From Cyanophora paradoxa CCMP329 (Eukaryota; Plantae; Glaucophyta), in contig QPMI01000568.1 in the NCBI GenBank assembly GCA_004431415.1, forward strand, positions 52,183 to 116,182: a stretch of DNA of 64,000 bases. The letters are read 5' to 3'. The translations under genes were made by a program, and so were the position numbers. The notes beneath the pieces are model-generated. The model saw only the letters and a list, made by a program, of their open reading frames with translations, searched no databases and was not told the DNA's origin. The first letter of the stretch is position 1, and the number at the start of each line of letters is the position of its first letter. Below, piece by piece: positions 30,568-63,077 of this stretch.

Positions 30568-30590
30568 GTCTCTATAAAGAAATACATATT

Positions 30591-44381: not shown

Positions 44382-44406
44382 CCCTCTCTATATATACCTG
44401 AGATTT

Positions 44407-45237
44407 CTATGGAGCAGTATCCTGCCCGAAAATGGGGAAGTATCGATTTGTGCCGTAATACTCTGCATATGTATTCTGTCTTGCAATAGCATCGGTTCTC
44501 TCAGCATAGAGAATGCATTTGTAGATACCAAATCTGGTGGCTCTCACCAAGAACTGGTAATCTTCAAGACCGAAATTCACACCATGATAAGCGATTCCGA
44601 AATTGTCATATGGGGTGATCACAACTGCAATATTTGGGGTTCCACCCTCTACTTGACAGACAGCATAAACATCTGGTGGGATATCGACAACCACCTTGTA
44701 GTGGTCACCAATCTCAACAAGAGAATCAACTACTGATGTCTGCTCATTCACAACAATTGGGAAGATCTTGATAATATATGGTGCATTCATACTGGGGACA
44801 TAGGTGCGAATTCTGGTGTTGGGATCAATGGGGTTGGGTTGATCATTTACGAAAAGAGGCGCACCCACAGCTCCACCAACCCGAAGACCATCACCAATAT
44901 ATGCTCCCCCCGTTTTGCAGTTAATAGCTCCCGACCGAGATTCAAAAGAATAAGTAGAAAGAGGATCACCATAACTGTCTGGGTCTCCATAATGTGCAGA
45001 AAAGTTTGCATTGGTGACAAGGAGTTTCGTTGTCTTAACTATACCATTATTTTTATCACACCTGAGTTCCTGCAATCTCAGTTTGTGGGTGGAACCAAAG
45101 GTATTCATTGTAGGTTGGACTTCTGTTGATTGGAGACCTTCCACATCATCAAAGGTAGCATGCTGCAAAACGTGATTTGCAGGTGCTGCTAATGATAGTT
45201 GGGGTGTAATAATTCGCTCTATTGGAATTTCAGCCAT
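44407..45237 (-). CDS. Hypothetical virion-associated protein, paralogue 1
   Basis: Orthologue of 12053-12898; conserved N-half, diverged C-half. Confidence 0.7.
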   Translation of the reverse strand: MAEIPIERIITPQLSLAAPANHVLQHATFDDVEGLQSTEVQPTMNTFGSTHKLRLQELRCDKNNGIVKTTKLLVTNANFSAHYGDPDSYGDPLSTYSFESRSGAINCKTGGAYIGDGLRVGGAVGAPLFVNDQPNPIDPNTRIRTYVPSMNAPYIIKIFPIVVNEQTSVVDSLVEIGDHYKVVVDIPPDVYAVCQVEGGTPNIAVVITPYDNFGIAYHGVNFGLEDYQFLVRATRFGIYKCILYAERTDAIARQNTYAEYYGTNRYFPIFGQDTAP

Positions 45238-45260
45238 TTTACATTTAAGTAATATATAAT

Positions 45261-46115
45261 TTAAGGTGTTGGATCGTCAATAACATCTGGCTCCTGGTAA
45301 AATCCGGTTGTAAAGATATCAGCAATATTCACACCACGAAGTGCCGAAACAGCTGCTATATCTGTTCTCAGTCCCATAATCATAGTATTGTAAACTCCTA
45401 CCTCAGTGACAAACAGATCATAGGTAAATGTCAAATTGTTATATACACAATATCCCCGACCGAAATGATTTGATGCTTGAACAAAGAATAGGTAATTGTG
45501 ACCTGGTTGATTGTTGTTTGCTCTGCACATCGAAAGCATTGCTGTGGGAAGAGGAATATTCCTTCTCACACGATCAGTTCCTGTAATGGAAACCAACTCT
45601 GAATTTTCAAGAGAGACAGATGATGCAACATAGAAGTGAAGAAAAGGTTGCTGTGCAACAGGTGTATAGAACCGAATTCGTTGTGGATTTTCAACATTTT
45701 GTTCAAGGGAATCCGGGACATCATTGTATGCAATCGAAGAAGAGAGTTGACCGGACACACGACATCCACCACCAATAAAAGCTCCACCTGATCTCACAGT
45801 AACAGCAGCAGAATTCTTGTCGAAATCGAGGGCTTTCAGATCAACACTGTAAGCATCAGGGCCTCCATTTATTGGCTGGAAGAAATTTGCATTGCTTACG
45901 AGTAGTCGAGTGGTTTTAACTACACCCGAATTCTTATCGGCTCGGAGTTCTTTTACTCGAATCATTGAGTTTTTGTCAAAAGAGTTACCATTCGAATTAG
46001 GTCGTTCAGTGGATTCCAGACCGCGAACCTCATCATTGACTTCGTGTTGGCGAAAATGATTTGCAGGGGATCCCAGGGAATAGATAGGTAGCTGAACCCG
46101 ATTATATTCACCCAT
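45261..46115 (-). CDS. Hypothetical virion-associated protein, paralogue 2
   Basis: Orthologue of 12918-13760. Confidence 0.7.
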   Translation of the reverse strand: MGEYNRVQLPIYSLGSPANHFRQHEVNDEVRGLESTERPNSNGNSFDKNSMIRVKELRADKNSGVVKTTRLLVSNANFFQPINGGPDAYSVDLKALDFDKNSAAVTVRSGGAFIGGGCRVSGQLSSSIAYNDVPDSLEQNVENPQRIRFYTPVAQQPFLHFYVASSVSLENSELVSITGTDRVRRNIPLPTAMLSMCRANNNQPGHNYLFFVQASNHFGRGYCVYNNLTFTYDLFVTEVGVYNTMIMGLRTDIAAVSALRGVNIADIFTTGFYQEPDVIDDPTP

Positions 46116-46269
46116 TGCTTCTTTTACTAAGAAGGAAAGAAAAATAAACGACTTTCAAGAAGGACATGCAAGATACATGCCTTTCTTATGCATGATCTAT
46201 GAAAAATAACAATAAACCCAGTCGTCAGACAAGCTGCCTTGGCTGCGCCTCTCTCATTCTTCGAATTCT

Positions 46270-46533
46270 TTACATAGGAGCGCTCACAGGAATTTCGCTT
46301 GCCTTTCGAACAGTCCCCCTTGCAAACGCTTGCTCTACAATCGCTTCCTTTGTGAGTGGAATCGGAATTCCAGCGGCAATACACGATTTAACTTCTTTGT
46401 CCACAATCTCATCAATCGCAATTCTCGCCCGATTATGAGCCGCATTATCGATCCAATCCTGAACAGAGTAGGCACAGTATTCCATTCCCAGCTTTTCAGT
46501 CTCAGTTAAAACGATTTGATAGTTGTGCGACAT
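46270..46533 (-). CDS. Small hypothetical protein, element C-specific (resembles small phage tail-region proteins)
   Basis: 87 aa, VQDWIDNAAHNRARIAIDEIV; preceded by an AGTAAAAG leader like the neighbouring genes. Confidence 0.6.
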   Translation of the reverse strand: MSHNYQIVLTETEKLGMEYCAYSVQDWIDNAAHNRARIAIDEIVDKEVKSCIAAGIPIPLTKEAIVEQAFARGTVRKASEIPVSAPM

Positions 46534-46559
46534 TCTTTTACTTACAAGAAAGAAAATTT

Positions 46560-47540
46560 TTAAGCCAACGCTGTTATGAGGTATCCTTTCATTTGCATAC
46601 TTGTTCCTAAATAGCCCCCGTTACTGTTAGCAAGTCTTCTGAAATCAACAAAATCAGTTGTAGAGTTAAGCTGAAGAATAAATAATCCAGTCAAATAGGC
46701 TTTTTCGTTTGCAACAGTTCTTTCATAGTTTACATAGTATCCAGTGGTTGATTTGTTCACATCATTTACATGTAGCGAAATAGCTGTTTGTCCAGTTCCT
46801 GTATCATTTGTATGTGCTGACCACGAAAATACATATATCCCTTTAACAGGAGCAGTAAACCGCCCTGTGGTGGCACTAAAACAATTTCCTTGATTTAGTT
46901 CAACAACGAGACTATCTCCATTATTTGTTGAAATAATTCCAGTTCTTGTAATGTAGGCAGCTGTCGAATCTCTCACACAAAATGCAGCAAAGTTTGATGG
47001 ATATAAGTATCCTGTATTTATTGAAAGTCCGGTGTCTTTCACAGTAGCAATAGTAGCTCCATTTCGTTTAATCAACACATCAGACGCAGCCCCACTATCA
47101 ATAGTGGTCGTTTTAACTGTCCCAAAAGATCCAGCGGTAAGGGATCCAATTGTCGCACTTGTTGCTGTAATTGCTCCATTCACACTCAGTCCAGTCCCAA
47201 TCCATGCCCCGCCACTGTAAACTTGAAAAGCCGCCGAATTCCTATCAGCCGGATTAAAAGCCGTTTTGGAATCCTGTTGACCTTCATATAGATTTTCTTT
47301 GGTGACCAGCCCCGAAGAGATTGCGGGTCGATTAGATACGATCATTTGAGTAGCTTTAACGAGTCCATCAATCTTGTCGGCTCTGAGTTCTTTGACTCTG
47401 AGTATGCTTTGTTCATTAAAAGAATCGGTTTTGGCTGTTTCAGTTGAAGGGTGGCTTGGAGATAAATCATAAACAGTGTGTTGGACATTGTGGACAGCAC
47501 TTGCACTCAAAGAAAACACAGGCGTGAATACAGTTGTCAT
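46560..47540 (-). CDS. C1q-like domain protein with the shared N-terminal anchor domain, element C-specific
   Basis: ILRVKELRADKIDGLVK N-terminus; C-terminal NQGNCFSATTGRFTAPVKGIYVFSW C1q signature. Confidence 0.75.
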   Translation of the reverse strand: MTTVFTPVFSLSASAVHNVQHTVYDLSPSHPSTETAKTDSFNEQSILRVKELRADKIDGLVKATQMIVSNRPAISSGLVTKENLYEGQQDSKTAFNPADRNSAAFQVYSGGAWIGTGLSVNGAITATSATIGSLTAGSFGTVKTTTIDSGAASDVLIKRNGATIATVKDTGLSINTGYLYPSNFAAFCVRDSTAAYITRTGIISTNNGDSLVVELNQGNCFSATTGRFTAPVKGIYVFSWSAHTNDTGTGQTAISLHVNDVNKSTTGYYVNYERTVANEKAYLTGLFILQLNSTTDFVDFRRLANSNGGYLGTSMQMKGYLITALA

Positions 47541-47560
47541 CTTTAAATTGCTCTTTATAA

Positions 47561-50500
47561 TTACGTGAGAATATTATTGTTTTGGAGAGGTCCGACAGCA
47601 ATCCAATGGAGTTTAAGGGTTCTTTCGTTTTGAGGCACATTCGTATAATTGATCGCCGAATAACAAGTAAATATAGCAATCCAAGTGAATTTATTTTTGA
47701 ACCCAATGCGATTCCCGAACTGATATTCAGCAGAGAGATATATGCTATTGGTGAAATCGACACTCGTTAAAATAATACTGTTTTCGAGAGTAGCATTAAC
47801 TATTGGATCACTATAATATGGGGTAGAAAACGTAACGGTTCCTGATGCTGTAAACACTTGCCCTACTGTATAAACTTGATTAGGTATAACTACATCCGCT
47901 GTCCCCTGTTGCACATATGCATTTGCATTTACATAACTACCGAAATTCGTGAGCAACTCGATGCTGTGATTGTGAGTAGGTGGCGAAGTAGGTGTGTTAA
48001 TTAAATCGTCATAGTTCCCGCTTGTAGCCACAGCATGCAAGTTTGGTGTATTAACGAGATCATTATAGTTTCCACTTGTAGCCACAGCATGCAAGGTCGG
48101 TGCAGTAGGGGTGTTAGTTAAATCATTGTAGTCACCACTTGTAGCCACAGCATGCAAATTCGGTTTAGTAAATAGTCTATCCCATGTCCCATTGAAAGGG
48201 AGTGTAGATTCTGATATAATTACACTTTGATCAATCCAACGAGGTATATAAGTGGTGAAATCGGGAATTCTTGATAAATCATAGTAATCACCTGTGAATG
48301 CTACACTACTCCAAGTTGGCTTCTCCGTAATATCAGTCCATTTACCACTAAATCCTGCCGGGACATCTGTGAGTTCTTTGTAGCTCACCTTTTGCTTTGG
48401 TATGGAGAGTTCAATGGGCGAAAATGCACCTGAAAGGTAATTCTCAGAAGAGAAATACATGAGATTATGGCTGTTTGGGAACACATCCACAAGATTAAAG
48501 GTGAAATTCGTTGGTAATTCGACTCTACTAATTGGAGTGTTTGCATCTAATATATATTCAGCACCTGGGTGAACAACAGGAAATGTCTGAGCATTTGGAG
48601 TATCAACAAGGAAATTCGGAGCATGAACATCACCTGTGACAGTTCCACCAGTGAGAGGAAGGTAAGCACCCTCCACAGCAATTCCTGCGATGATTGTTGC
48701 TCCATTGTCTCTCAGATAATCCTCTGTTACCACTCTTGATATGGTCTCATTGTGAATATTCTTTGCTGCTGCCCTCTGATTAATTTCTAAAACTCCCTCA
48801 CCAACTCCACCATTATAATTCGTTTTAATCCATGCAACCTCGCATTGTTTATAGTCATCTCGGTTCCCCAAAAGTGCATCTGGTAACAATCTCTCTCTGC
48901 TGAATATTAATTTCGGTCTTGATGAATCTAAATCACTCACATCAGAAACATTAATTTGGATTGCAGCGTTTTTATCATCATAGTTTGCTGGATCAGAAGG
49001 TAAAGATATTAAACCTCCTGTCATTGGGATGTCATCTGCATAGTAGCTGGTAAGATAGATACCTGGTTTGGTGTCTTTAATTTCAATACCACCACCAAGT
49101 CCCAATATTCCATTTCTTGTAGGGGGTCTAATGTATAATTCGCCTTCCATTGTGGTGCCTGCATCTATTCCCTTTCGATTCACATAGTAATCATTTAATT
49201 GTAATCTTGCTGGTGTGTCTATATTTTGATAGAGACTCACACCATTGTTAATATCTCCTAATAATACATTACCTGCTGATGCGAATTTTGGTTGTTCATC
49301 TATTTCGCTCCATTTATGTCTGTGATCTTCTGGTGGGAACTCTTCTGGTTTTCCATCAATATCACCCCAATCATGCCTGTGATCCTCTGGTGGGAATTTC
49401 TCTGGTTTACCTAATATCTCATCCCAGTCATGGTTGTGATCCTCTGGTGGAAATCTTGCTGGTTTGTTATTGATCTGCTCCCAATCTGGGAAGAACTCCC
49501 AAATCTCTGGGCGAAATCCATCTGGTAATAATTCTTCATGGGGTTCATATGGTTGCTCATAATCAACAACTGGTGGTTCGAGACCATCTGCTAAATATTC
49601 CTCATGGGGTTCATAATTCTGCTCATATTCATACTCTTGTGGATCTAAACCATCTGGTAAATACTCTTCCTCATTGGGATCATATTGATCATATTCATAC
49701 TCTTGTGGGTCGAAACCATCAGGTAGGTATTCCTCCTCATCTGGAACGAATTGGTATTCGTCAAGCTCCAAAATATCAATTTCAGGAGGTAAATATTGCT
49801 CATCAATTTGCTTTCTTGGTTCAATTATCGGTTTATTTCGAACCTGCTCCCAACTCACAATGTGTTGACCAAAAGGAACTGTCTCATCTGCTGTGTATTC
49901 TCTTCCTGGTTGCTTTTTGGGTGTTAAATCTGGTGGATCCCATGGTAGTGGGAAGGGAACTGGGACAGGTCCATAATACTCAAAGATCTCTCTTATGGTC
50001 TTCTCACTTACAAGTTTCTCTCCATTTGCATAGACATTGCTTCCATGGATATTTCGCCATTGTCTGGTTCTAATACCAAGATCTTTGGTGTTTGTCACCA
50101 AAGGTAAAAGGTGCCTATCCATTTCGACAAGGTCTGGGTGTAAATGAACTGTTACTGGTTGAGTGGGGCTACTGTTGACAGTGATAGACGCCTTATTCTT
50201 TGCTGTATCACCAGGTAGTTGGAAACCGAATTGCGCATTAGAAGCCGAATTCGCCACAATATCTCGTGGATAAACATTGTTAGTGAACTCGATTTTGTTG
50301 GTTTCTCCATGGGGGCTATCTGTAATATTTCGGGAATTTGTGCAATTGCATTTGATCCTTCATTATAGATTCTCAAACCACTCTGATGCCCACCCTTCTC
50401 ATTTTGAACATTGAATATTAACCTACCACTATCGAATCGAGTTGGAATATCTGGATGGGTTCCACTGGTTTTCAGTTTTCTTGGTCTGCTCCTGGTTGCT

Positions 50501-50754
50501 TTAATCTGGGCTACTTGATTCGATTTCACATTCCCCATGCTGAAAGCAACACTCACATCCTCCTTTTCGGGATCCATTTCGTTTATTGAAAGTGCATGCT
50601 CTCTTGGGTGAGTCTTTGAGGGTTCATCTGCACTGTGATCAATTGAGATTGACCCTCTGGCTGTCAAGTTATCGAAATTCACATGTTTGTTATCTGCCTT
50701 CCCTCTTCCTGATGAGGGAATGGTTTGAAGGTTTGCTGGGTAATTGAAACTCAT
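47561..50754 (-). CDS. Fibre protein of element C (about 1,060 aa, frameshifted near 50255-50310)
   Basis: Orthologue of the element B fibre N-half. EEYLPDG repeats, FPPEDHxHxW repeats and HAVATSGxYxDL x3; different C-terminal tip. Confidence 0.78.
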
Positions 50755-50803
50755 CCCTGTTTACTCTACTTATAGAGATTTATTAAATTTGAGTTAAGTA
50801 AAG

Positions 50804-52345
50804 ATGCCCCTGAAAATTTGCCTCAGTCTCTCAGGTGGGGGAGCTCGTGGTATAATTATTACGAGATTGCTTAAAGAAATCGAAACTCGAACAGGAAAAA
50901 GAGTAATTGACCTTGTTGACCTGGTGAGTGGAACATCCACTGGTGGGATAATTGCGATTGGTCTCAATGTGAAAAATCCCGAATTTCCAAACGAACCTAA
51001 ACTCACTGCAACCGATTTGCATTCCACTTATCTCAATCAACTCCCCTTAATCTTTGCAAATCCCAGAAATATTATTGATAATGCACTTTTCAACACCAAG
51101 TATGATGTGACCCCATTGGAGACAGCCATTCTCACTGTTACTGGTGAGTCTCTCATTCAAGACTCTCTCAAAGATGTAGTGATCACAAGTTTTGACACTG
51201 TGAGTATGAAGCCCATTTTTATCACCAATGATAACTCCTACAAATCCATCCCCAGCAAGATTGCTGCAAGATCCACCTCTGCTGCTCCAACATATTTCTC
51301 ACCTGTGAACTATGATGGGATGTCTCTAATTGATGGTGCAATCTCAGGTAACAACAATCCCAGTGTCTGTGGTTACAGTCATGCTAAGAAGATCTATGAT
51401 GATGATGATGATATTATAGTGATAAGTATATCCTGTGGTGAAGTCAATGAAACAGATGCTCCAAATGTGGGTTACTCTTATGAAGATGTGAACAGCTGGG
51501 GCATCCTCTCTTGGATTGCTTCGACCTCTGGAAGTCCATTAATCAATATGTTGATGGCTGCAAGTGAACTCTCTGCTCTGGAAAAGATGCAAGAGTTTCT
51601 CCCATACAATGATGATCAAGGATATGCAAGATATTATAGACTCTCTGTTCCACTTCCAAAGACCATAGTAAACTCTTTGGATGATACCTCTAAGATCCCA
51701 GATATGATAGATGCAACCGAAATATATATAGCAGCAAACACTGTGATGATTGATAGACTCTGTGATTTACTGGTTGCAAATTACGAAATCAAGAACCCTG
51801 CAAGGTTCTATATATCATCCACTCTGAATAACATACCTCCCATTGATGCTAACTGGTATCTTCTATCAGATGGTGCATTCACTGCTTCATCATCAAAAAT
51901 TGGAAGGGAGGCATTTAAAGCAAGACCTTCCTTGACAGGTTGGGAAGCAAATGCATCTGCTCCTGATGGGATATGGAGTGTTCCCACTGAGTATCTCCAA
52001 GTAACCTTCCCATACATATTTGAGGTTGCATCTATAATTGCATATGGTTCTGGTGTAACAAACGCTTTTATTAAGACCTTCAATGTTGCAACATCACAAG
52101 ATGGTGTTTCCTGGTCATTTATCAAGTATGAAGGTGTCAACAGAGTGTTTATGTGTGAAACTATTAATAATGCCCACAACAGTGGTGATGTCTCATACAG
52201 TTCTGGGTATCCCACCTCTATTAGAGACGTTTTCTATATTGGCTACCCTCTGAGGACAAGGTATATTCGAATTTATCCACTTGTATACATCAACACCCCA
52301 ACTATGAGAGTGGATGTCACAGGTGCATTTATTCGAAGTGTATAA
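50804..52345 (+). CDS. Patatin-like phospholipase with F5/8 type C domain (intact)
   Basis: GGGARG, GTSTG, DGA; discoidin C-terminus. Confidence 0.9.
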   Translation: MPLKICLSLSGGGARGIIITRLLKEIETRTGKRVIDLVDLVSGTSTGGIIAIGLNVKNPEFPNEPKLTATDLHSTYLNQLPLIFANPRNIIDNALFNTKYDVTPLETAILTVTGESLIQDSLKDVVITSFDTVSMKPIFITNDNSYKSIPSKIAARSTSAAPTYFSPVNYDGMSLIDGAISGNNNPSVCGYSHAKKIYDDDDDIIVISISCGEVNETDAPNVGYSYEDVNSWGILSWIASTSGSPLINMLMAASELSALEKMQEFLPYNDDQGYARYYRLSVPLPKTIVNSLDDTSKIPDMIDATEIYIAANTVMIDRLCDLLVANYEIKNPARFYISSTLNNIPPIDANWYLLSDGAFTASSSKIGREAFKARPSLTGWEANASAPDGIWSVPTEYLQVTFPYIFEVASIIAYGSGVTNAFIKTFNVATSQDGVSWSFIKYEGVNRVFMCETINNAHNSGDVSYSSGYPTSIRDVFYIGYPLRTRYIRIYPLVYINTPTMRVDVTGAFIRSV

Positions 52346-52566
52346 TATTTCAGAAGTCCTGATGTATGATACAGTGGCTTCTGTATCTTCGCCCACATTA
52401 TGGCGATTTTTACAGTAGCTACTGTATTTTATTACCAGGTGCTCCATTTTTAAATCTGAAAACAGATTCGGAATCGCCACGATAGCGCCAATCAGGATTC
52501 GTCGTGATCGGGCACTTACAAAATAAAAAATTGACAAGGAGTTTCTGGATTCTCCCAACTTCTGCT

Positions 52567-52809
52567 ATGGATCCCATCTACCAAGACCCTGCTATCATCC
52601 ATGCTGCCCAGTCAGACTGGATCCATGATTTCAAGACTGCTTTCTATTACAATTTCTTCATGTCACAGCCAGAGCATGTGAGACTGTTCTTTGTTTATAA
52701 TTACCAACTGGTCTCAAACCTTGAAACTTTCTTCTTGGAAATTATTGAAAAAGATAGACAAATGAGGAAAATTCGCCAGAGGTCTAAGAGATTCCGAAAG
52801 CGTTGTTAA
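52567..52809 (+). CDS. Small hypothetical protein, element C-specific
   Basis: 80-aa ORF from MDPIY, 32 nt downstream of AAAAAATTGAC. Confidence 0.5.
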   Translation: MDPIYQDPAIIHAAQSDWIHDFKTAFYYNFFMSQPEHVRLFFVYNYQLVSNLETFFLEIIEKDRQMRKIRQRSKRFRKRC

Positions 52810-52810
52810 T

Positions 52811-54211
52811 CTATTTCCTCTGCCCTCTTCGTAGATTGAATCGAGTTTGGGGTGCAGTATATGTTTCTTTGGTGGTTGAAAAGTCATTATACCACCTCTG
52901 ACTGTTGACTTCTGATAATTTCTGGGTTCCTGCTATGGTCAACTTCTTTAATTCTTTCTCTACTCTACCCTTCTTTTGTGCTCTTGCTTCTGTGAGGGGT
53001 TCTTTTGGTATTTCACTTGCTTTTTCTATGCCCTCCTTTCTGATTGCTGAATCAACCCTGGCTTCCTCCTTTGCCTGTTCAAGAGCATCCACTGTGGGAG
53101 TTTCATGATACTCAACACCTTTAATGGGCAGGAGTTCATGAAAAGCGAATCTACCATCAACTATCTCACCACTGGGACTTCTGATTCTGAACTTGAAGCC
53201 CTCTCTGCCCTCCACACTATAAACAATTCGAGACCAATTAACCCCTTGCTTTGCAAATGGATTCTTTTCAACTTTCACTCTCACAAACATTCCAGGTTTC
53301 AGGGCATCAAGATAATCAATCGATTTCTTGAATCTCTGATCCTCCATATTCACTATCTCTTTGTAGTGGGCTTCTGTGGTCTCTGCTGGTTTTCTCTTGG
53401 TTGCAGAGTGAATGGTATTATTATAATTATACTCAATATCACCCAACACATCAAAAAATCGTGCAGTATTATTTGCAATGCAGTAGTTTGTGATCAATCT
53501 CTTGATCTGTCTGTTAAAGGCTTCAATTCGACCTTGGGTTCTGTGATCTGCAACATCACTTAGTTGATGCTCAATGAATTTTGTTCCCAAATAATCTGTG
53601 AACAACACATTGGTAAATTCGCTTCCACTGTCACTCTGAATGCGAACAATTGGTCTGGGGACTCTCTGTTCAAGTTGCTTGAATGCTGCAAGTGTAGTAA
53701 GAGCACTCTTGTCTCTCATTGGAATTATGAACCCTGTTCTCAGGGTTGACTCCATTGCACTCATAAATGTATCATAACCATCATTCTGCTTTTTGTATGC
53801 AGGAAAGAAGAGCAGATCAATCACATAGGTATCAAGGGGTTGCCTTATTGGAATCATGGGATCTCTCTTTCGAGATAGGGTGGGTGCATTAATTTGGACA
53901 ACCTCCTGTTTATCATACCATTCTCTCATCTTCTTGTAGTTCTCTTCTGGTAGTTCCTGTCTCATTGCTGTGAATCCCTTGTAGCCTGTCCTGGGATCAT
54001 AGAACTTCTTAGCAATCTTCGACTCTTTTGGTGCTGTCTCAGCTGGGAGGGTCTCTGGGATTAATTGCTTGACCATCTCTGATCTTTTCAATATTCGACT
54101 GCTTTTCTCTTCCACTGGAACTGTGATAGGTAGGATATTCCCTCGATCTTCAATTGCCTCTTTTCTTACAATTCTGGGTGGTTGTCTCAATCCTATTTGT
54201 GTAGAAGGCAT
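52811..54211 (-). CDS. rve DDE integrase (element C)
   Basis: YVIDL, IQSDSGSEF, GRIEAFNRQIK. Confidence 0.92.
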   Translation of the reverse strand: MPSTQIGLRQPPRIVRKEAIEDRGNILPITVPVEEKSSRILKRSEMVKQLIPETLPAETAPKESKIAKKFYDPRTGYKGFTAMRQELPEENYKKMREWYDKQEVVQINAPTLSRKRDPMIPIRQPLDTYVIDLLFFPAYKKQNDGYDTFMSAMESTLRTGFIIPMRDKSALTTLAAFKQLEQRVPRPIVRIQSDSGSEFTNVLFTDYLGTKFIEHQLSDVADHRTQGRIEAFNRQIKRLITNYCIANNTARFFDVLGDIEYNYNNTIHSATKRKPAETTEAHYKEIVNMEDQRFKKSIDYLDALKPGMFVRVKVEKNPFAKQGVNWSRIVYSVEGREGFKFRIRSPSGEIVDGRFAFHELLPIKGVEYHETPTVDALEQAKEEARVDSAIRKEGIEKASEIPKEPLTEARAQKKGRVEKELKKLTIAGTQKLSEVNSQRWYNDFSTTKETYTAPQTRFNLRRGQRK

Positions 54212-54236
54212 CTTTACCTTATCTCTCATATAATAA

Positions 54237-54398
54237 ATGCAAGAGTCTGTGTGGAAGGAGAACACAATTCCAAACTACTTTGCAATTGAGCCCAATGATC
54301 CAGGATTAAGATGTATATGGCTGCTGCATTTAATTCGCGGTTTATTACTTCTTGGAGAGCGAAACCAAAGAAAAAGAAAGATTGATGAAGTAGATTAG
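54237..54398 (+). CDS. 53-aa micro-protein
   Basis: MQESVWKENTIPNYFAIEPNDPGLRCIWLLHLIRGLLLLGERNQRKRKIDEVD*. Confidence 0.75.
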   Translation: MQESVWKENTIPNYFAIEPNDPGLRCIWLLHLIRGLLLLGERNQRKRKIDEVD

Positions 54399-57300
54399 AG
54401 CCCAAATGGAATGCTGTGAATTCCATCGTCTAATATCTTCCTTTTGCTATCGAGTTGGTTTAGAGCCACCCTTCTGCTCTCCAAATCATATAGGTTGTGG
54501 TCTTGCCTTCGCTTGTTTACTACTGCTACTGTTTTGGTGATGCCTTCAAACAGGCATCTCTTGAAATCATCAAAGTGAACCTCTTTGGAGGAAGTCCCAG
54601 ACATCTTTATTTTATCAAAGGTCTCAGTTCTGAAAGCATAGAGTTTCGATCTCAGACCTACATACTCCACAATCTTTGCATTTGGAAACTCGTTTTTATA
54701 TTTACCTGGAATCAAACGATTGCTCCTATCAAAGAGAGGGTGGGTGGGATCATAATTACTGCAATCCAGGTGTCCAGCAATTCGCTTCATCTCATTATTT
54801 AGATCATTGGTATGCAGCAGGAGACAGAAAGAATCTGTATCATGGAATAGTAGCTCTGCTGTTTCCCAAGTTCTCCTCACCACATCATAAAAGAACCTGC
54901 TATTGTGGAGTTTCGCGAAATCCAGCACAAAAGCACCAATTGCAACAGGTTTATCTAAGTGAACATGCTTGGAATACATCTCAAAGGCAACAGCATTTTC
55001 GTTTAATACATTGGTTGCCTTGATGAGTGGACTTGCAGCATATTTCTTGCAAAGTTTCTCACTGTTTGCAATCTTTACCACAGAGCGACCCCTGCATGAT
55101 TCGAGGCATTTACCATAGATTGCATTGTTCATTAATTTAAAGAAGTCACTCTCGAATCTGGACATAGATTGGCGCCTCAGTTTCGTATTTAGATCAATAT
55201 AACTCTTCATGAATGCAGAGGTTGCAAATGAGAGAACCCTGTGAACCTTCGTGATTATAATACCTTTGCTCACAAGATAGATCAAGAGAGGTTGGGAAAT
55301 CACATAGTTATTTTTGGGTGAGAATGTTGCAGTGAGTTTGGGGTCTTTGCTTATCTTCTCACCTGTGATATCCAGTAACTTTCTTTGATACCCACCCAGC
55401 ATTTCGGTGGTGACATGCTCTTTATTAACTACAAGTGGAAAATCGTAATGATCTGTGAGAGTTTGTGGGTATTCCAGGTCAACTTCAATAAAGGCACTTC
55501 GTCCTTGGGTCTCTTTAAGTGCCTCTGAGACATCTTCCCATCGAAAATCTCCAATGGGCAGTTCTTGACTGAGAGCAAAACCATACAGATTATTTGCATC
55601 CAAGAGAACTATATGGTCATCTGGGTTTTCCACCTTTGCATATCGAGTAGGCATTGTAGCAAACCCACCTCGAATTGCTCTCTCAATGAATTCGTATTGC
55701 CCTACATCACTGATCTGCTCGATCTTTGCTCTGGTATAAATGAGCATTGCATCCAGGATAATCCAGGAGCCGAACATAGTGGGCAGGATCCAATCCATAT
55801 TGGGAAAACGCCAATTCTCGGAAAGTCTGGAATTTACTCATAAGATCACCAGAATCCACTGCCTGGAAGTCCATGAAGTGCGAAGCATCTATGAATTTCC
55901 ACATGCCCCATTGCAGGGAGAGGTATTGATCGAAATTCTTGCTCAGGATCTCAACACGAAGTTTATCATCTTGCTGTGCAATTTTGCGGAATATTTCGTG
56001 TCCACATTCATCCATGTGATCCACCACAATTGCTACTTTCGTTTGCTTTGAGATTCTCCTGTGGAGGTTGCAGTTTCGGCATGCTTTTCCAATAAAAGCT
56101 CCTGATTGATGACAATGGTCTCTTACTGGGAAATTCTCATGGGTAAATCGTTCAGCACAGATATAACAGTGTTTAGTGATCTTGTATTGTGCTTTCTGCT
56201 CTTCTGTGAGTGGGTGCATTGGAATATTGGTGAATAGAGTGCGGATTACTTGGGGTCTGATCTCTGTGAGAGTGGTAAACAGAGCACCAAGTGGATCTGA
56301 TCCCTCGAAATAATGAGAGATCACCTCATCCCCCATCACAACTGTTAAAGAAACCGATTTGACCGCTCTTTTACTGCGGTTCTCATCAATTGGAACCGAG
56401 TGACTATCCATTTTACATAGCAGATAGTGGAAGCCACACAGTTTTGCGAAGGTGTTGAAGCCCAAATGCAATGTGACTTCCAGATTTCGGGCATTTACCT
56501 TTGCTCTCCCTCCAATCAATGCAGCGATTGGCTTCTAAGTGAATGTCCAGCTTCTCCTGAGTTCTGAAACGAGACAGGCAGGTCTCACAATAATAAATGC
56601 GACCATCATGGGCTTTATCAAAGGTGGTTTTCAGGAGTCGACTCAGAGACATAATGGTGATATAATGTCCTCTATCATCCTCTTCGTTTTCGATTAATAA
56701 AAGGTTAATCTTGGTCTTTCTCCTCGGGTTGCTGGATTGATGGAGAGGATAGAAACACTGTGCTTGATTATCTGCACCATAAATGTTGATACTCAGTTCA
56801 GGGTTCTGCTCCTCAAATCGATCAATGATTTCTGCATCACAGGCAACTGGAAACTGGATGCCTTCGAAATTGAGTTCGTTTAACCATCTTCTATACTGGC
56901 TGGGTTCATTGCTCTTGTGTTTATTGATGTCCTTTCGGTGCAGGTAAGCCAAGATTGCATACTTGAAGCAGTCTTGACCATCAATATTCTTGACATTCAC
57001 AGTTGCTCTCTTTAATCCAATCCACTCAGGTGTTGAGAAGAAGCAACCACCCACAGGAGCATAAGACATTATAACCACTCTCAGCATCTCGATGCGATCC
57101 AGTCTGTAACTGTCCACCTGCATCATCTGTTCCTGCATTGCTTGAAGTGCATTTCGCAGTTCAACATCAATATTTCGAGATCTTGTGATGACAAAGTAAT
57201 CACTATAAATGAACTTGGTGATCCACACCCTTGGATCACTCACTTTGGTGAACTTACAAATGAAGGTCAACCGAGTCTTAATTGCTCTCAGGTCTTGGAG

Positions 57301-57671
57301 TTTCTGTCTGAGTCTCTGAGGTAGAGTGGGTGCAATTCTCTCCAAGAATTCAATCCCATCTTGGATAACCTCCCCTCTTGCTCGATAGGTTAACCAAGAG
57401 TATGCTTTGTTCATTGCTTCCCCATCTTCAATCTCGGGTTCAATTGTTCCAACCTTAAACCTTCATCCCTGAATTCCTCCATCTTCTCAAAACGATCATA
57501 GAGGCGATTAGTAATTTCTGTGAGTTGAGATAATCTTGGTCTCCTATCCAGGATTGCTGCCTGGCGATCATATTCGAATTCTGTAATATCACCAGTAACT
57601 AAAAGGGTTCCTAAAAGACCGAGTATTTCGTTTTTCTTTTCTTTGATGATTCTATTTGATTGGCGGGGCAT
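54395..57671 (-). CDS. pPolB of element C (several frameshifts)
   Basis: Four ORF pieces collinear with the element B polymerase. Confidence 0.9.
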
Positions 57672-57727
57672 CTTTTACTTTAAGGGAACATATTATTTTT
57701 GGGCGTTTTAAACGCATTTCGCATTTT

Positions 57728-57919
57728 TCAGGTTCTGATAATTCGCACATTCGTGCCTTTGGGGACATATACATTCACTGTGTCGAGTCTGCTTGCATAA
57801 ACACGCTTCTTTTGATAGGTTCTACCATAACCTGCTCTGATCTTTGCAATATAATCCGCCACCTCTGCAATATCATTCTTTTCGACAAGCTGCTGCCGAA
57901 TTTCATCAAAATAATCCAT
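57728..57919 (-). CDS. Small hypothetical protein
   Basis: Syntenic with and C-terminally similar to 26934-27092. Confidence 0.6.
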   Translation of the reverse strand: MDYFDEIRQQLVEKNDIAEVADYIAKIRAGYGRTYQKKRVYASRLDTVNVYVPKGTNVRIIRT

Positions 57920-58062
57920 TTTCTGTCTTAGTCAAGTGAAATACGCAACGATCCCTTAAATCGCCAGTCAATTTTTGTCACAACACAACGATTTTCGATA
58001 CGTTTTTATATTGTCCGATTAAGAATCGAAACAGTCATCGACCCACAGGGGGGAGTCTGTGG

Positions 58063-58183
58063 TTAATTGGGTGTGACGCCTGTGACGCCTGTGACACCTG
58101 TTTTCAGAGGTTTGTAGATTTTTGAAATTTTAAAAAGTTTGAAAATAGGCGTCACAGGCGTCACAGGCGTCACACTCAATTAA
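58063..58183. promoter_or_regulatory. Internal iteron palindrome of element C; putative origin
   Basis: (TGTGACGCC)x3-like arm, AT-rich core, (GGCGTCACA)x3; same position as 27152-27244 in element B. Confidence 0.7.
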
Positions 58184-58272
58184 AAAGGTGTCACAGCTGT
58201 CACACAAACCATTTACAGTAAGGTTTTTAAAAATAAGAAATTCAATCAGTATTAGAATCGATTCTGTTTTGT

Positions 58273-60630
58273 TTACTCATCCCCACCTTCAACATCACTG
58301 TCATCCACCAACTTGCGACTATGCTTCTTTTTGATCCCAAAGTAGCCACGAGCAAGAACACCATTGACTCGCTTTCTCTCAGCCTTCACATTAAAGACTT
58401 CGCGAAGTCTCTTCAAGATAGTGCATTCTGTGATTTTCTCATCAGATTTGCCCATGTGATCCATCTTAAAGTGACTGATAATGGACTCACTTGTGGCGAA
58501 ATCCCCTTGACTCTTGGTGAGTTCATAACTCTCACGAATCCATTCTCCAATCTTGTCATTCTCATTGAAATATTCAACACCTTGATCAACAATGGACTGG
58601 GGTGGTTTGGTGACGAATTCATTGAGAGAATGGGTTCTCCACATTTCCAGGAGAATGGACATATGCGCCATTTTATAATCGTCATCATTCTTCATTAGGC
58701 GCATGAGAGTGGTGTCTGCTTTCTTCTCACCAGGCTGAGGATCGACCTTGAAGACATTTTCGAATCGGTAGTAGATAATTCGCCTTTGAATTGCTGCATC
58801 TGGTTTACTGATTCCCAAGTTGTCATTTGTGGACAAGAACAACTGGAACATGGGAATGAATGTAACAAGATCTTTGAAAAGAGCTCGAACCTTCATCTCA
58901 TTCCCACCAGTAACCTGTTTGATTTTGTTCAGTTGAAGCATATCACCATCTTCTGCTTCATTACTGAAAACAATTCGTTTACCAAGAATGCAAGCGAGTT
59001 CTGGGGAAGCCTCTGACGAACTCTTCTTGGGTTTAGTCCAATATGTCATGTCCAGTGACCCATAATACTCACCAAATGTGTCTTTCACCAACTCTTGGAG
59101 CAGTGATTTCCCATTTGCTCCAATTCCAGTCCAGCAAGTGTATCTCTGATTTTCTGTCAAACCACTCAGGGCATAGGCGATTAATCCCAGCATGAATTCG
59201 CGGTCTGTATCCGATTCAATAATATCTGCATAGATGGATTTAATCTTTGCAACCTTCTCTTGGTCAATTTCTGTGGTGTAATCGTAGCCAACAGTCTTAC
59301 TCACCATATCATCTGGGAGTCCCTGTCGAAAAGTCATGGAGTTCAGGTCAAACACACCATTTGTAAATCCAATGATGTTGGGAACAGTATCAAGTCTCTC
59401 GAAAAAGGTCTTGTCACTGAACAGAACTGAAAGATCAGACATAAGTGCAGTTCTGTATGTAGTCTGTTTGAGGCTCTTAGCAATTCCCAGCAGAATCTTT
59501 GACCTTTCCTCCAAGGAATTGCGGTTCTCTTCATCACGAAGTGCTCTCTGTGCGAGTTGAACAGAACGTTGAAGATAAACTGGACAGACCTTGCAGCTCA
59601 ACAGAGAAAGATTCGCTTCCCAGTTTCATCCATCTCCCAAATCCCACATACATCATTGAACTTGAACCAGGTCTTGTTGGAATACTTGTATTTGTCTTGC
59701 AGAACAAGATAGGCAACCTGTGCAACATCATAATGGGCACCATCAGATCCAGCAGACCGATCAATCAGATTTTCGATCTTCACATCTGTCTCTTCCTTCA
59801 CACGAACTGTGATGCTTCGCTTTTTGCAGTTTGCACTGTAACTCGAAACAATATATTTGTCCTTCTCCTTCCCTTGAACAATATACCAATTGTTCGAGTC
59901 ATGGCTTCCCTTGCAGCAGGGACAGATCAGACCTTTGTTCTCAGCAGTGAAATTGTATCCCATCTTGGTCTCATTGATGATTGTGGGCAAGATGAAACCG
60001 AATTCTTCAGTTTAGAAAGAATATGTTTCTGCAAATTCTCCTCAGCGCACCTCTCAAAATAAGAATGTGCACCTTTGGGGAATTCGTAGTTGTCAACAAT
60101 CCACTTTTGCAACTCAGCAGTAGTTCATTTAACTCACACTCAGATGCCCATGGCTCTCTGATCCATGTTTTGTTGGGACTTGGACAAACATTAATTACCC
60201 AGCAGTCCCAGTGGATGCAATCGTTTTGCAGTCGATCTTGGGGTTTCCTTTGAATGCACCTGCTTTATCCAGATCTTAATGGTGTCGAATTCAGCAGGTC
60301 GAGCGAAATAAGCATGATATCCTTTTTGGTTTTAGCAAGTGGATTAACACCACCGAAATCATCAGGGAATTGCTCCTCGAATTTGGCGAAATCCTCCTCT
60401 TGGTCGAAGTCAATAACCATGATATTACGAGCAAGAATGCCCCAAGCAGTATATTTACCGGATTTCAGGGCTTCATCGAATTTATCCCAAGTCCAGGATC
60501 CGTCTTTATGAGCGAAAAGCGGTCTCTTGGTATCAGGATCAACAGGAATTACGAGATTCTCAGACAGGACATCGTCTTCACGAAGCCAGTCAACAAGGCG
60601 TTTCAGGGATTTCTTGGCGGCAGCGTTCAT
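58273..60630 (-). CDS. PrimPol-D5 SF3 helicase of element C (frameshifted)
   Basis: WGILARNIMVIDFD, WTGIGANGKS, FSNEAE, RGYFGIK. Confidence 0.88.
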
Positions 60631-60824
60631 TTCGAAAATCGGGGGCTTCTTACACTTAATGGAGAAATTAATTTCTCCGGATCCTTGTCATTTTTTGGCG
60701 GCTAACCTTTAAATACCTTTGGGTTTTCCGATTGGCGCTCGATACATGGTAATGATCCATCGAAAAGTCGATTGATCATGGTAACAAAAAGGATTCAGCG
60801 GATATCTGGGACTTTGGGGGCGGT

Positions 60825-61052
60825 TCAGTATTTTCTGGGACGACCAACTGGGCGTTTTACTGGATTATTGGGATCCATCTCAGCAGCTTTCCTGCGATAA
60901 TATCGTTCCAGTGCCTTTTTACGATATAATTTACGAAATTCCTCATCTTGATAACGTTTCTGGAAATACAAGCGGTCATACAACCTTTTCCTCTCATTGG
61001 GATCCATTTCGCTCATTGCAAGTTCGAATTCGACCACAGATTCAGTTTCCAT
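60825..61052 (-). CDS. Small AT-hook protein
   Basis: Ends KRPVGRPRKY. Confidence 0.65.
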   Translation of the reverse strand: METESVVEFELAMSEMDPNERKRLYDRLYFQKRYQDEEFRKLYRKKALERYYRRKAAEMDPNNPVKRPVGRPRKY

Positions 61053-61253
61053 TTGATATGTTCCTTATATTTGGACGAGAAAATAATTTGTCCGGGTTCA
61101 CCAATCAAACACACCTTACCCTTAAATCCCTTGTCATTTTTTGCAGATCGAGACCAGTTCCTGTCTACGCTTTTTTATTGCGTCTTCTGTTGCATATTCA
61201 GCGGATTTCCTTTCAAGGATAGCATAGATCTCAGAGAGACTGAGCATTCGATA

Positions 61254-61487
61254 TTAATTACCGAGATTTAATTTCGGATCTGTGAAAGATACAGACCTTC
61301 GCCTCACTGTCTCTGTTTTAATATGCTCTTCGAAATCCACCGAGTCTGTGGATAATCTCCTTCCACCAGATCCATGGCTTTCAGTGTCTGAGAACTCGAT
61401 TTCGACTTTGGTGTCACAGCAACCACTGTGACAATTGCTCACAATGTGGAGATTAAACATCTCAATGATTTTGCGCAGAAAATCCAT
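61254..61487 (-). CDS. Small hypothetical protein (SNCHSGCC)
   Basis: Orthologue of 30301-30567. Confidence 0.65.
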   Translation of the reverse strand: MDFLRKIIEMFNLHIVSNCHSGCCDTKVEIEFSDTESHGSGGRRLSTDSVDFEEHIKTETVRRRSVSFTDPKLNLGN

Positions 61488-61514
61488 GATGCTTTCTCTT
61501 TTAATGCGAGATAA

Positions 61515-62238
61515 TTAAAGCCAAACTCGTCGTTTATATACTGTTGGTGCAACACCTTTGTCCACCTCTGCCTTGGTAGCACCAGGTTCAATGGTGCCCT
61601 TTTGGGTTTTGGTCTTCATCTCATCAACTGCCTGCTCATCGATTTGAGTTTCTTTCTTACCAATGAACTGCTTATCTGGGAGACCAGTAATTCCCATTCT
61701 ATAACCTCCTTTCGCAGCATCTCCTTTAATTTCGCTCTCTCTTTCTTCTCAGAGACATACTGTTCAAGTGCACTCGATTTCGCTTCCAGATCTTTTAGTT
61801 TCGCAGTCATTTCGTCCCATTGGGCTTTGGAATTCGGTGAATATTCTGTGTAGGTGCGACCTTGTAGGTGACCTCACCAGCCATGGATTGAATTACCTTG
61901 TCTGATTCCTTGGAGACACCTTCACCTTTGCGAGCAAGTGAGAGATCTTGCAGACCCAGTCCTTATCATCAGCAGCACCAATAATTCGACGAGCACTTCA
62001 CCAACTGCTTTCATCTTGTGGCTTCGGGTGAAATATTCAATTGATCACTGGTGGATGTTTGAGGCGCTTTATCATCGGGAGATTCTTCGTAGCAGCATTG
62101 AGGGGATCTTCCTGTTGCTGTGATGCTCACTTCATTGACACCATTGAATTTCATGGATCTGTGTTAATAGAACCGGTTCCAGAGGATGCAGAATATGACA
62201 TAGCACCGCAGGAACACCAACTTTGCGTTTGGAAGCAT
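61515..62238 (-). CDS. Hypothetical coiled-coil protein (frameshifted)
   Basis: Fragments match 30591-31322 (MTAKLKDLEAKSSALEQY, YKRRVWL). Confidence 0.6.
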
Positions 62239-62262
62239 TGTATTTATTAGAACAGAGATTAT

Positions 62263-63010: not shown

Positions 63011-63077
63011 GGCTTTGTAGATCTTTCTTATTAAAGATAGATAAAAATAACGAACTGTTACTGATAATGGTTTTACA

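What the first reader, a model, noticed from the sequence alone, without database searches (positions are those of the whole stretch)
53461..53760. Sister elements with near-identical proteins but about 9-fold different CpG content
Seen: a manual count in orthologous integrase segments gave 27 CpG in 22681-22980 (B) against 3 in 53461-53760 (C), although the peptides are highly similar. The same contrast is visible by eye in the polymerase, patatin and ATPase genes. The CpGs left in C are mostly in TCG/CGA contexts. Inference: lineage C was synonymously purged of CpG while staying under purifying selection. Causes could be repeated cycles of host 5mC deamination or selection to evade methylation silencing, whereas B is a newer arrival or is otherwise protected. 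The middle of the B fibre gene (about 14.3-18.4 kb) also looks CpG-poor, suggesting import from a C-like lineage.
Basis: partly seen in the sequence, partly recalled or inferred. Interest (0 to 1): 0.75.

Follow-up and report, generated by a model that had tools for sequence, protein, structure and literature searches.

The report
Sister viruses purged different DNA words
Two related viruses inserted side by side in a likely algal genome both lack the same short DNA words of the kind that DNA-cutting enzymes recognise, and one has also shed most of its CG pairs except next to T/A, likely through selection against sites its host methylates, so their sequences would record which defences each lineage has faced.

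Summary
The count is right (27 vs 3 CpG) but extreme: across aligned elements the ratio is 2.5-fold (785 vs 309) at equal GC3. The ~9-fold figure holds for one context class, [ACG]CG[CGT] ('VCGB'); TCGA is nearly spared. B is near neutral; C is the deviant. The purge extends to arginine codons, where deamination cannot remove CG silently, and a motif-selection model beats transition-only deamination by 41 log-likelihood units. Unrelated element A shows a related CG-context avoidance. Unexpectedly, B and C share near-total absence of GTAC, CTNNAG, CTAG, TGCCA, GGCC and GGNCC (10 and 11 sites vs ~297 and ~264 expected), termini included; A and host DNA do not. That is a restriction-type imprint, likely from a giant helper virus. 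C's termini keep VCGB, so the CG purge is a second, graded regime, most likely driven by host CpG methylation (likely Cyanophora paradoxa) with a flanking preference. A helper-virus enzyme is the main rival. B's fibre middle is CpG-poor but not C-like. The scan noted restriction-site avoidance before in other virophage-like genomes (unchecked notes).

The parts
1..6050 (.). Element A, an unrelated virus-like element (helicase-containing replication protein, rve integrase, RING protein); right end approximate. Avoids ACGC, GCGC, ACGT, ACGG but not CCGG, TCGA or the B/C restriction-type sites
   Evidence: no blastn match to B or C; integrase 32% to B by tblastx; contexts
6100..9930 (.). Host DNA, GC 60%, CpG o/e 1.31, single-copy reference for contig depth
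9929..9934 (+). 6-bp target-site duplication of B, left copy
9935..38684 (.). Element B, complete Polinton-like provirus, CpG near neutral (internal o/e 1.09), restriction-type sites nearly absent
9935..11278 (.). B left terminal inverted repeat, 1344 nt, 100% identical to the right one
   Evidence: I1
11172..11570 (-). B S-adenosylmethionine decarboxylase-like gene (ESH motif present)
14300..18400 (-). Middle of B fibre gene: about half the CpG density of B's core, flat across contexts, shares the B/C site avoidance
20572..22008 (+). B patatin / F5-8 type C gene
22127..23425 (-).
23611..26891 (-). B protein-primed family B DNA polymerase (one frame break in the window's copy)
27312..29649 (-). 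B primase / D5-like helicase (in three frames in the window's copy)
31351..32133 (-). B A32-like packaging ATPase
33250..34650 (-). B likely double-jelly-roll major capsid protein
   Evidence: low-confidence model; best match PBCV-1 capsid, E 9e-4
37341..38684 (.). B right terminal inverted repeat
38685..38690 (+). Target-site duplication of B, right copy
38690..42010 (.). Host DNA, GC 64%, CpG o/e 1.30
42016..64000 (.). Element C, sister of B, cut by the window end; VCGB-purged (internal CpG o/e 0.54), restriction-type sites nearly absent
42016..43630 (.). C left terminus: 28 VCGB kept in 42016-43520 (most in short tandem motifs) but 0 of the shared restriction-type sites (13 expected)
43521..43922 (-). 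C S-adenosylmethionine decarboxylase-like gene, 74% identical to B's
46200..47600 (-). C-specific segment with high VCGB density (12.8 per kb), likely a later import
47600..57650 (.). Most purged core of C (2.0 VCGB per kb vs 20.3 in B's core): fibre, patatin, integrase, polymerase
50804..52345 (+). C patatin / F5-8 type C gene
52811..54229 (-).
54395..57671 (-). C protein-primed polymerase (frame breaks in the window's copy are contradicted by contigs)
60280..61250 (-). CpG-rich mosaic segment of C (18.5 VCGB per kb); 60285-60712 is 87-95% identical to B 29303-29731 in 100-column windows, against ~77% elsewhere; likely recombination
   Evidence: (D8)

Best explanation
B and C are sister, likely multicopy Polinton-like proviruses that both lack one set of restriction-type words, likely under pressure from a giant helper virus's nucleases, while C alone has also lost CG pairs in [ACG]CG[CGT] contexts, likely through selection against the sites that the host's CpG methyltransferases mark best. 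Steps. (1) Shown: two distinct sequence regimes, one near-absolute and genome-wide (GTAC, CTNNAG, CTAG, TGCCA, GGCC, GGNCC; partly AGCT), shared by B and C; one graded (VCGB >> TCGB/VCGA > TCGA), in C's genes. (2) Shown by model fit: the graded loss is not transition-only deamination; C escapes VCGB by any synonymous route, including changing only a flank. (3) Inferred: while integrated, the provirus is CpG-methylated; copies with fewer well-methylated CGs are reactivated or expressed more often, so the lineage drifts to CG contexts the host enzyme marks poorly; a roughly two-fold deamination term adds to it. (4) Inferred: B's lineage has spent less time under this filter; recombination still passes CpG-rich segments into C. 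(5) Inferred: the absolute regime acts during free replication beside a giant virus that carries restriction endonucleases.
For: Context gradient at synonymous sites in C vs B: VCGB 12/510 vs 153/701 and 14/333 vs 172/493; TCGA 11/61 vs 24/75 and 32/113 vs 68/158. Arg codons in VCGB context: 11 of 174 vs 86 of 235 (p=7e-14) with Arg content unchanged (263 vs 257). Of 57 B VCGB-Arg codons, C has 21 as AGR, 25 with CG kept but a flank changed, 6 kept, 5 non-Arg. Model fit in C: selection 4149.0 vs transition-only deamination 4189.9 (-lnL, same parameter number); both 4139.7 with a x2.2 term; in A 1803.2 vs 1826.0. No excess of deamination-type amino-acid changes (22 of 863 CpG positions vs 110 of 3032 others). 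For a host agent: unrelated A shares CG-context avoidance (rank correlation of 10 contexts with C 0.65, p=0.04) but not the restriction-type set; C's termini keep 28 VCGB but none of the restriction-type sites, so VCGB is a graded cost, not a lethal cut; the likely host has 32% CpG methylation, DNMT1+DNMT3, methylated repeats and viral genes (PMC12344493); mammalian DNMT3 prefers RCGY over YCGR (PMC4810514, passage citing its ref. 29), close to A's pattern. For nucleases: 10 vs 297 and 11 vs 264 sites; CTNNAG and CTAG are methylated motifs of an algal giant virus (PMC12700378); chloroviruses package restriction enzymes with 2-4-bp sites (PMC7019647).
Against: No methylation data were available, so the host's flanking preference is untested. 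B sits in the same genome at similar apparent abundance yet shows no purge, and 'less time under the filter' is an assumption without an outgroup (no DNA relatives found). A model with CpG transitions and transversions both raised ~17-fold fits almost as well as selection (4151.2 vs 4149.0). A and C differ at CCGG (-0.04±0.41 vs 2.95±0.54), which one enzyme acting for different times does not simply give; C's strong CCGG avoidance departs from the RCGY rule. PMC12344493 reports that most repeats in C. paradoxa are methylated whatever their age, and in Amoebidium silenced elements are methylated regardless of CG context (PMC11244446), which would blunt a context filter. The host identity rests on a protein label and unchecked notes. 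No helper virus is known for these elements.
Confidence: 0.45

Rival explanations
1. The CG purge in C comes from the same class of agent as the shared site loss: a helper or rival giant virus with a very frequent CG-centred endonuclease or nickase (opposed nicks at VCGB, single nicks at half-sites). B and C would then be sisters that specialised on different giant viruses.
For: Site-specific elimination is already shown for this family. Chloroviruses encode 2-4-bp cutters and nickases such as CviJI, Nt.CviPII and Nt.CviQXI (PMC7019647). Costs are super-additive: TCGA 0.6, half-sites 1.2-1.4, VCGB 2.5-4.0. A and C differ at CCGG, as different enzymes would give. It explains why B, in the same nucleus, is untouched.
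Against: C still holds over 120 VCGB sites, 28 in one terminus, and tolerates VCGB-rich imports, whereas the restriction-type sites are absent from the termini too; a current cutter would give no benefit to such partial loss. No enzyme with VCGB specificity appeared in what I read. It survives only as a past pressure or a weak nickase.
Confidence: 0.28
2. Context-dependent hypermutation without selection on the motif: methylated VCGB sites mutate fast by transitions and transversions, or deamination during latency kills copies with VCGB in constrained codons (mutational load), which mimics motif selection.
For: A model with CpG transitions and transversions both raised fits nearly as well as selection (4151.2 vs 4149.0; A 1806.3 vs 1803.2). 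A small deamination term improves the fit. In the recently exchanged block 6 of 54 B CpG bases differ by transition against 1 of 46 in the reverse direction (not significant).
Against: It needs ~11-17-fold higher transversion at CpG, far above what I recall for 5mC. No excess of deamination-type replacements. CpG retention in C does not depend on amino-acid conservation (VCGB 18/633 vs 4/165; low power), which the load version predicts.
Confidence: 0.15
3. Classical 5mC deamination (CG to TG/CA) over repeated rounds of integration, with purifying selection on proteins only.
For: B CG aligns to C CA/TG 311 times against 63 in reverse; TpG o/e 1.28 vs 1.08; B copies vary at CpG (7 of the 12 C>T/G>A rows among the 40 shown of ~950).
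Against: Transversions are as asymmetric as transitions (103 vs 17 and 68 vs 12 against 254 vs 49). Arg VCGB is purged about as deeply as synonymous sites; in simulation deamination gives this only if Arg is so weakly constrained that its share falls to 25-50%, while 217 of 257 B Arg are Arg in C. 41 log-likelihood units worse than selection (7 without Arg).
Confidence: 0.07
4. Composition, codon usage or assembly artefact.
Against: GC3 equal; deficit survives codon shuffles that keep codon usage (VCGB 47 vs 180 expected, z -13.9); contigs of four public runs match long stretches of C with few differences.
Confidence: 0.02

Closest known systems
Restriction-site avoidance in prokaryotic viruses (Rusinov et al. 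2018, PMC6286503; passages read)
   Same: Near-elimination (observed/expected <0.1) of specific short, mostly palindromic sites while neighbouring words are normal.
   Different: Here in endogenous viruses of a eukaryote; that paper used eukaryotic viruses as the negative control, excepting some green-algal viruses. The nuclease would belong to a third party (a giant virus), and none was identified.
Giant-virus restriction-modification systems (chloroviruses PMC7019647; AaV methylome PMC12700378; Jeudy et al. 2020 PMC7253447; passages read)
   Same: CTNNAG and CTAG are methylated motifs of AaV; CviJI cuts RGCY, which holds GGCC and AGCT; R-M was proposed as an anti-virophage agent and PLV methyltransferases as protection (PMC12220804, 10.64898/2026.06.19.733378).
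   Different: Jeudy et al. found no support in amoebal systems; AaV's methylases have no identified endonucleases; AaV's GTNNAC and TGNNCA are not avoided here. B carries no detected methyltransferase and appears to rely on site loss instead.
Host 5mC silencing of viral insertions in protists (Amoebidium PMC11244446; C. paradoxa and Acanthamoeba PMC12344493; punuivirus 10.64898/2026.10.09.758095)
   Same: CpG methylation of repeats and viral genes, silencing, context-dependent methylation levels (CGC/GCG in Amoebidium), viral counter-measures.
   Different: Those works describe methylation and TET-like counter-enzymes; the passages read do not describe sequence-level purge of methylatable contexts in Polinton-like viruses. 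The context here (VCGB, TCGA spared) is not Amoebidium's.
CpG depletion of vertebrate genomes and viruses by 5mC deamination or CpG-directed selection (recalled; general statement in PMC12695648)
   Same: CpG deficit with TpG/CpA excess and lower TpA.
   Different: Host genes here are CpG-rich (o/e 1.3); the deficit is confined to some viral lineages, strongly flank-dependent and not explained by transitions alone.
Polinton-like viruses / Polintoviricetes with pPolB, rve integrase and patatin (PMC12220804, passages)
   Same: pPolB, rve integrase, A32 ATPase, fibre, patatin fused to F5/8 C (reported for glaucophyte PLVs), TIRs, 6-bp TSD.
   Different: No cysteine protease detected; capsid has only two relatives in the databases searched; carries an AdoMet decarboxylase-like gene.

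Membership tests
Polinton-like virus (broad sense) | Double-jelly-roll major capsid protein | tested here: inconclusive
   No Pfam or PDB sequence match; model pLDDT 38, but all listed Foldseek matches are double-jelly-roll capsids, best E 9e-4
Polinton-like virus (broad sense) | A32-like packaging ATPase | tested here: met
   PF04665 E 4e-9, above cutoff
Polinton-like virus (broad sense) | Own replicase and integrase | tested here: met
   pPolB 33-38% to Maverick/adintovirus-type polymerases, E to 2e-89; rve hits E 3e-4 and 2e-3, below Pfam cutoff; D5 primase-helicase
Polinton-like virus (broad sense) | Terminal inverted repeats and target-site duplication | tested here: met
   B: 1344-nt TIRs, 6-bp TSD; C's right end is outside the window
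Polinton-like virus (broad sense) | Virion formation, dependence on a giant virus | not testable with these tools
   No helper known; inferred only from the site imprint
Canonical Maverick/Polinton | Adenovirus-type cysteine protease | tested here: not met
   No such Pfam or NCBIfam hit among B's ORFs scanned; several ORFs remain unassigned
CpG decay by 5mC deamination | CpG deficit at equal GC3 | tested here: met
CpG decay by 5mC deamination | Loss mainly by transitions, with product excess at fourfold sites | tested here: inconclusive
   Transversions equally asymmetric; only a x2.2 term supported, none without Arg codons
CpG decay by 5mC deamination | CpG kept where deamination would change a conserved residue (Arg CGN) | tested here: not met
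   VCGB Arg 9 of 143 vs 52 of 151 in conserved Arg pairs; simulation
CpG decay by 5mC deamination | The DNA is methylated at these CpGs | not testable with these tools
   Only contigs were available
Restriction-site avoidance (shared B/C set) | Near-elimination of specific sites (obs/exp <0.1) | tested here: met
   GTAC 0/69.5 and 0/35.4; CTNNAG 0/69.5 and 6/77.7; CTAG 1/33.5 and 0/22.0; TGCCA 3/33.6 and 1/42.5; GGCC 1/20.3 and 1/14.4; weaker GGNCC 5/32.6 and 3/28.7, AGCT 25/71.6 and 30/63.9 (3104 patterns scanned)
Restriction-site avoidance (shared B/C set) | Specificity: similar words and other DNA unaffected | tested here: met
   GATC, CATG, TGCA, TCGA normal; GTNNAC, TGNNCA, CTNAG plentiful; A 66 vs 85, host 89 vs 67 and 81 vs 55
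Restriction-site avoidance (shared B/C set) | A cognate endonuclease in the host or co-infecting virus | not testable with these tools
   No genome held; no helper identified
Restriction-site avoidance (VCGB in C) | Genome-wide elimination, termini included | tested here: not met
   28 VCGB in the left terminus, over 120 in all

The most novel reading that the evidence does not exclude
Endogenous Polinton-like viruses carry a readable record of their enemies: the words missing from B and C are the target list of a giant helper virus's restriction arsenal (direct sequence evidence that restriction-modification acts against virophage-like parasites), and the graded VCGB purge in C and A is evolved evasion of a CG-directed defence, so sister lineages can be sorted by helper virus and by time under host silencing, and the enzymes' specificities predicted, from sequence alone.
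Probability: 0.4. Interest if true: 0.82.

Novelty: new variant of a known kind. Interest (0 to 1): 0.64.

Why it matters
Whether giant-virus restriction-modification systems act against virophages and PLVs is stated as proposed but unsupported (PMC7253447). Here a PLV family with no detected methyltransferase has erased a defined site list, which names the specificities to look for in its unknown helper. The second regime gives a quantitative prediction (methylation rank VCGB > TCGB/VCGA > TCGA) for a glaucophyte methylome of the kind already generated in PMC12344493, and would show endogenous viruses adapting their codons to host silencing. Both are testable now with existing data types. If the CG signal proved to be plain hypermutation it would be a modest observation, but the site elimination would stand.

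Tried and rejected
No whole genome is held, so other copies, host transposons and endogenous giant viruses could not be examined. No DNA outgroup: capsid and integrase found nothing in viral contigs, and the integrase alignment nothing in metagenome contigs; polarity rests on B fitting a neutral codon expectation. No RNA holder listed; this is no evidence on expression. The Atlas held neither capsid sequence. GC3 and codon usage rejected. Transition-only deamination rejected as sole cause. A one-strand rule could not be read from raw alignments because codon position confounds it; both flanks matter. Amoebidium-type CGC/GCG context rejected: ACGT and ACGG are the most depleted and GCGA among the least. 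A B-specific protective gene: none found; B's 161-aa ORF has a diverged, broken counterpart region in C and no family hit; C's right end is unseen. AdoMet decarboxylase as the cause of the difference rejected: both elements carry it intact. 'C is a decayed old copy' rejected: frame breaks occur in both and contigs contradict several. Load-mediated selection: no dependence on constraint found, low power. The script stopped at a division by zero after printing the motif tables; the missing part on B variants was run. Literature: 'polinton' + 'CpG depletion' 0 papers; 'polinton-like' + 'S-adenosylmethionine decarboxylase' 0; 'restriction site avoidance' 0 occurrences in the 25 of 166 papers listed; one search listed 4 papers, none on site avoidance in PLVs by title or abstract start. 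The library lacks most subscription journals.
Full report
Setting. The window is a nest of virus-like elements (GC 41-42%) in GC-rich host DNA (60-64%, CpG o/e 1.3). B (9935-38684) is complete, with 1344-nt identical terminal inverted repeats and a 6-bp target-site duplication. C starts at 42016 and is cut by the window end; it is collinear with B at 69-79% nucleotide identity and 68-88% amino-acid identity. A (1 to ~6050) has no nucleotide match to either. B encodes a protein-primed polymerase, rve integrase, primase-helicase, A32 ATPase, patatin, fibre, an AdoMet decarboxylase-like protein and a likely double-jelly-roll capsid (the capsid model is low-confidence). The only close capsid relative is labelled eukprot:tig00020904_g15213.t1; that this label style belongs to Cyanophora paradoxa is recalled, and earlier unchecked notes on this genome name the same species. 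In four public runs, host-flank contigs have depth 33-115 while listed B and C contigs mostly run several- to thirty-fold higher. Contig depth is not copy number, but both families look multicopy. Several frame breaks in both elements are contradicted by those contigs, so neither looks like a decayed relic.

The observation. The counts are exact: 27 and 3. Aligned totals are 785 vs 309. GC3 is 0.393 vs 0.385. So the contrast is real, element-wide and about 2.5-fold.

The context rule. In C the six CG 4-mers with no T 5' on either strand (VCGB) have o/e 0.08-0.43, the three half-sites 0.66-0.89, and TCGA 1.45, the same as in B. At synonymous sites VCGB use is 12/510 vs 153/701 (codon positions 2-3) and 14/333 vs 172/493 (positions 3-1), eight- to nine-fold lower; TCGA is 1.5-1.8-fold lower. 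With each element given its own codon preferences, avoidance scores in C are 2.5-4.0 for VCGB, 1.2-1.4 for half-sites and 0.6 for TCGA; in B all are 0.05 or below. B is therefore the near-neutral one. A avoids ACGC, GCGC, ACGT and ACGG but not CCGG, CCGA or TCGA; its ranking correlates with C's (rho 0.65, p=0.04), but the two differ at CCGG.

Mutation or selection. CG in an Arg codon cannot be removed silently by deamination. Yet conserved Arg pairs go CGN to AGR 51 times against 11, and VCGB Arg codons are 9 of 143 in C vs 52 of 151 in B. Of 57 B VCGB-Arg codons, 25 keep the CG in C and differ only in a flank, 21 are AGR, 6 are kept and 5 are other residues. An equilibrium simulation gives such loss under deamination only when Arg is so weakly constrained that it would fill 25-50% of its sites; 217 of 257 are conserved. 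In a pseudo-likelihood fit using B's codon preferences as baseline, motif selection beats transition-only deamination by 41 units in C (7 without Arg) and 23 in A; adding a uniform x2.2 deamination gains 9 more in C, and nothing without Arg. Deamination-type amino-acid changes are not in excess (22 of 863 vs 110 of 3032). Against this reading: a model raising transitions and transversions at CpG together (~17-fold in VCGB) fits within 2 units of selection, the fit ignores the effect of a CG on the previous codon's third base, and synonymous sites are near saturation (30-74% different per gene), so B's state is not the ancestor. Some C ORFs right of 60 kb were left out because of frame breaks.

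A second, unreported signal. B and C both lack GTAC (0 vs 69.5 and 0 vs 35.4 expected), CTNNAG (0 vs 69.5; 6 vs 77.7), CTAG, TGCCA, GGCC and GGNCC, and are low in AGCT (3104 patterns scanned, top probabilities 1e-30). The result holds under codon shuffles that keep codon usage. Summed over this set, which was chosen after the scan, B has 10 sites vs 297 expected, C 11 vs 264, C's terminus 0 vs 13; A has 66 vs 85 and host DNA more than expected. Host CpG methylation cannot explain these words; in C. paradoxa non-CpG methylation is near background (PMC12344493, parts 2-3 of 10 read). This meets the elimination criterion used for phages (PMC6286503, passages). CTNNAG and CTAG are methylated motifs of the algal giant virus AaV (PMC12700378, passages); chloroviruses package restriction enzymes with 2-4-bp sites (PMC7019647, passages); a haptophyte giant virus with PLVs encodes at least 8 predicted systems (PMC6459981, passages). 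The helper inference is indirect: no such virus was found here.

Which agent purged CG in C. The two regimes differ. The restriction-type sites are gone everywhere; VCGB survives in C's terminus (28 sites) and in three segments at 13-20 per kb against 2-3.6 in the purged parts. One of them is 87-95% identical to B, likely a recent exchange, and keeps its VCGB. A graded cost shared with an unrelated element in the same nucleus points to the host. C. paradoxa has 32% CpG methylation, DNMT1 and DNMT3, and methylated repeats and viral genes. Mammalian DNMT3 prefers RCGY to YCGR (PMC4810514, passage), and flank-dependent levels exist in Amoebidium (PMC11244446, passages). Against: that paper also says silenced elements are methylated regardless of context; B is unpurged in the same genome; A and C differ at CCGG. 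I put host-methylation-driven selection at 0.45 and a helper-virus CG enzyme at 0.28.

B's status and the fibre. No methyltransferase or demethylase was detected in B. Among the 40 best-supported variant rows of ~950, 7 of the 12 C>T/G>A rows are at CpG where about a fifth of C/G bases are in CpG (hand estimate); this is a weak hint that B copies are methylated too. The fibre middle has about half B's CpG density, but its context mix matches B (p=0.79) and not C (p=4e-7), and it shares the restriction-site loss (1 site in 4.1 kb). It likely comes from within the family pool, not from a C-like purged lineage.

Novelty. Site avoidance, CpG suppression and 5mC silencing of viral insertions are each known. 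Their joint imprint in endogenous PLVs did not turn up in the searches made, which cover open-licence papers only. Recent PLV papers propose methyltransferases and TET-like enzymes as counter-measures (PMC12220804 and 10.64898/2026.06.19.733378, passages; 10.64898/2026.10.09.758095, passages); Jeudy et al. note the anti-virophage idea as unsupported (PMC7253447, passages). Halocafeteria PLVs showed no 5mC (10.64898/2026.07.28.741278, passages). This scan had noted restriction-site avoidance in two other small-virus genomes (unchecked), seen after I had found it here. Verdict: real feature, overstated in size, mechanism shifted from deamination to motif-level selection, with an added nuclease-type imprint; new variant of a known kind, interest 0.64.

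Noticed in passing
window 11279-37340 and 42016-64000: Near-total absence of GTAC, CTNNAG, CTAG, TGCCA, GGCC, GGNCC and reduced AGCT in both B and C, not in A or host DNA; restriction-type imprint.
   Followed up: yes
window 11172-11570 and 43521-43922 (-): Both elements carry an intact-looking AdoMet decarboxylase-like gene at the terminus (in B it overlaps the TIR). It could lower SAM or make an inhibitor of methyltransferases, or serve polyamine synthesis; untested. Named relatives are labelled as marine archaeal MAG proteins (41-55% identity). No paper paired it with PLVs.
   Followed up: partly
window 1-6050: Element A avoids RCGY-type sites (11 vs 37 expected), GCAC (8 vs 24) and CGWCG, with no general CpG loss and TpG o/e 1.01.
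   Followed up: partly
window 60285-60712 vs 29303-29731: Block of 87-95% identity at the primase start, next to a diverged region: likely recent exchange between B-like and C-like copies. The start of C's fibre gene is also 93% identical in protein to B.
   Followed up: partly
window 42735-43440 and 58076-58175: Short tandem motifs in inverted arrangement occur in C's terminus and again internally near 58.1 kb; B has its own 21-nt array (10795-11083) with an internal echo near 27152-27244. Possible origin or promoter elements.
   Followed up: no
   Followed up: no
window 10400-10830 and 42440-42620: A conserved repeated motif containing ATCGAT in both termini; TCGA is the most enriched CG 4-mer in B's terminus (o/e 3.3) and in host DNA (2.6-3.5).
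   Followed up: partly
window 13801-19716 (-): 1971-aa fibre with about 16 copies of a 12-aa repeat and an internal 99% duplication (15272-15571 / 17588-17887); contigs show many alternative joints here, suggesting copy-to-copy variation.
   Followed up: no
window 43631-64000: C also has lower TpA than B (o/e 0.61 vs 0.74) and more C at third positions outside CG contexts, so GC3 stays equal.
   Followed up: partly
window 41060-42000 (-): C appears inserted next to or within an intron-bearing host gene with repeat-like exons; not identified.
   Followed up: no
window 52062 and 56363: Two of C's few VCGB sites are minority alleles against the contigs, as expected if new VCGB sites arise in single copies and are not spread; two cases only.
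   Followed up: partly
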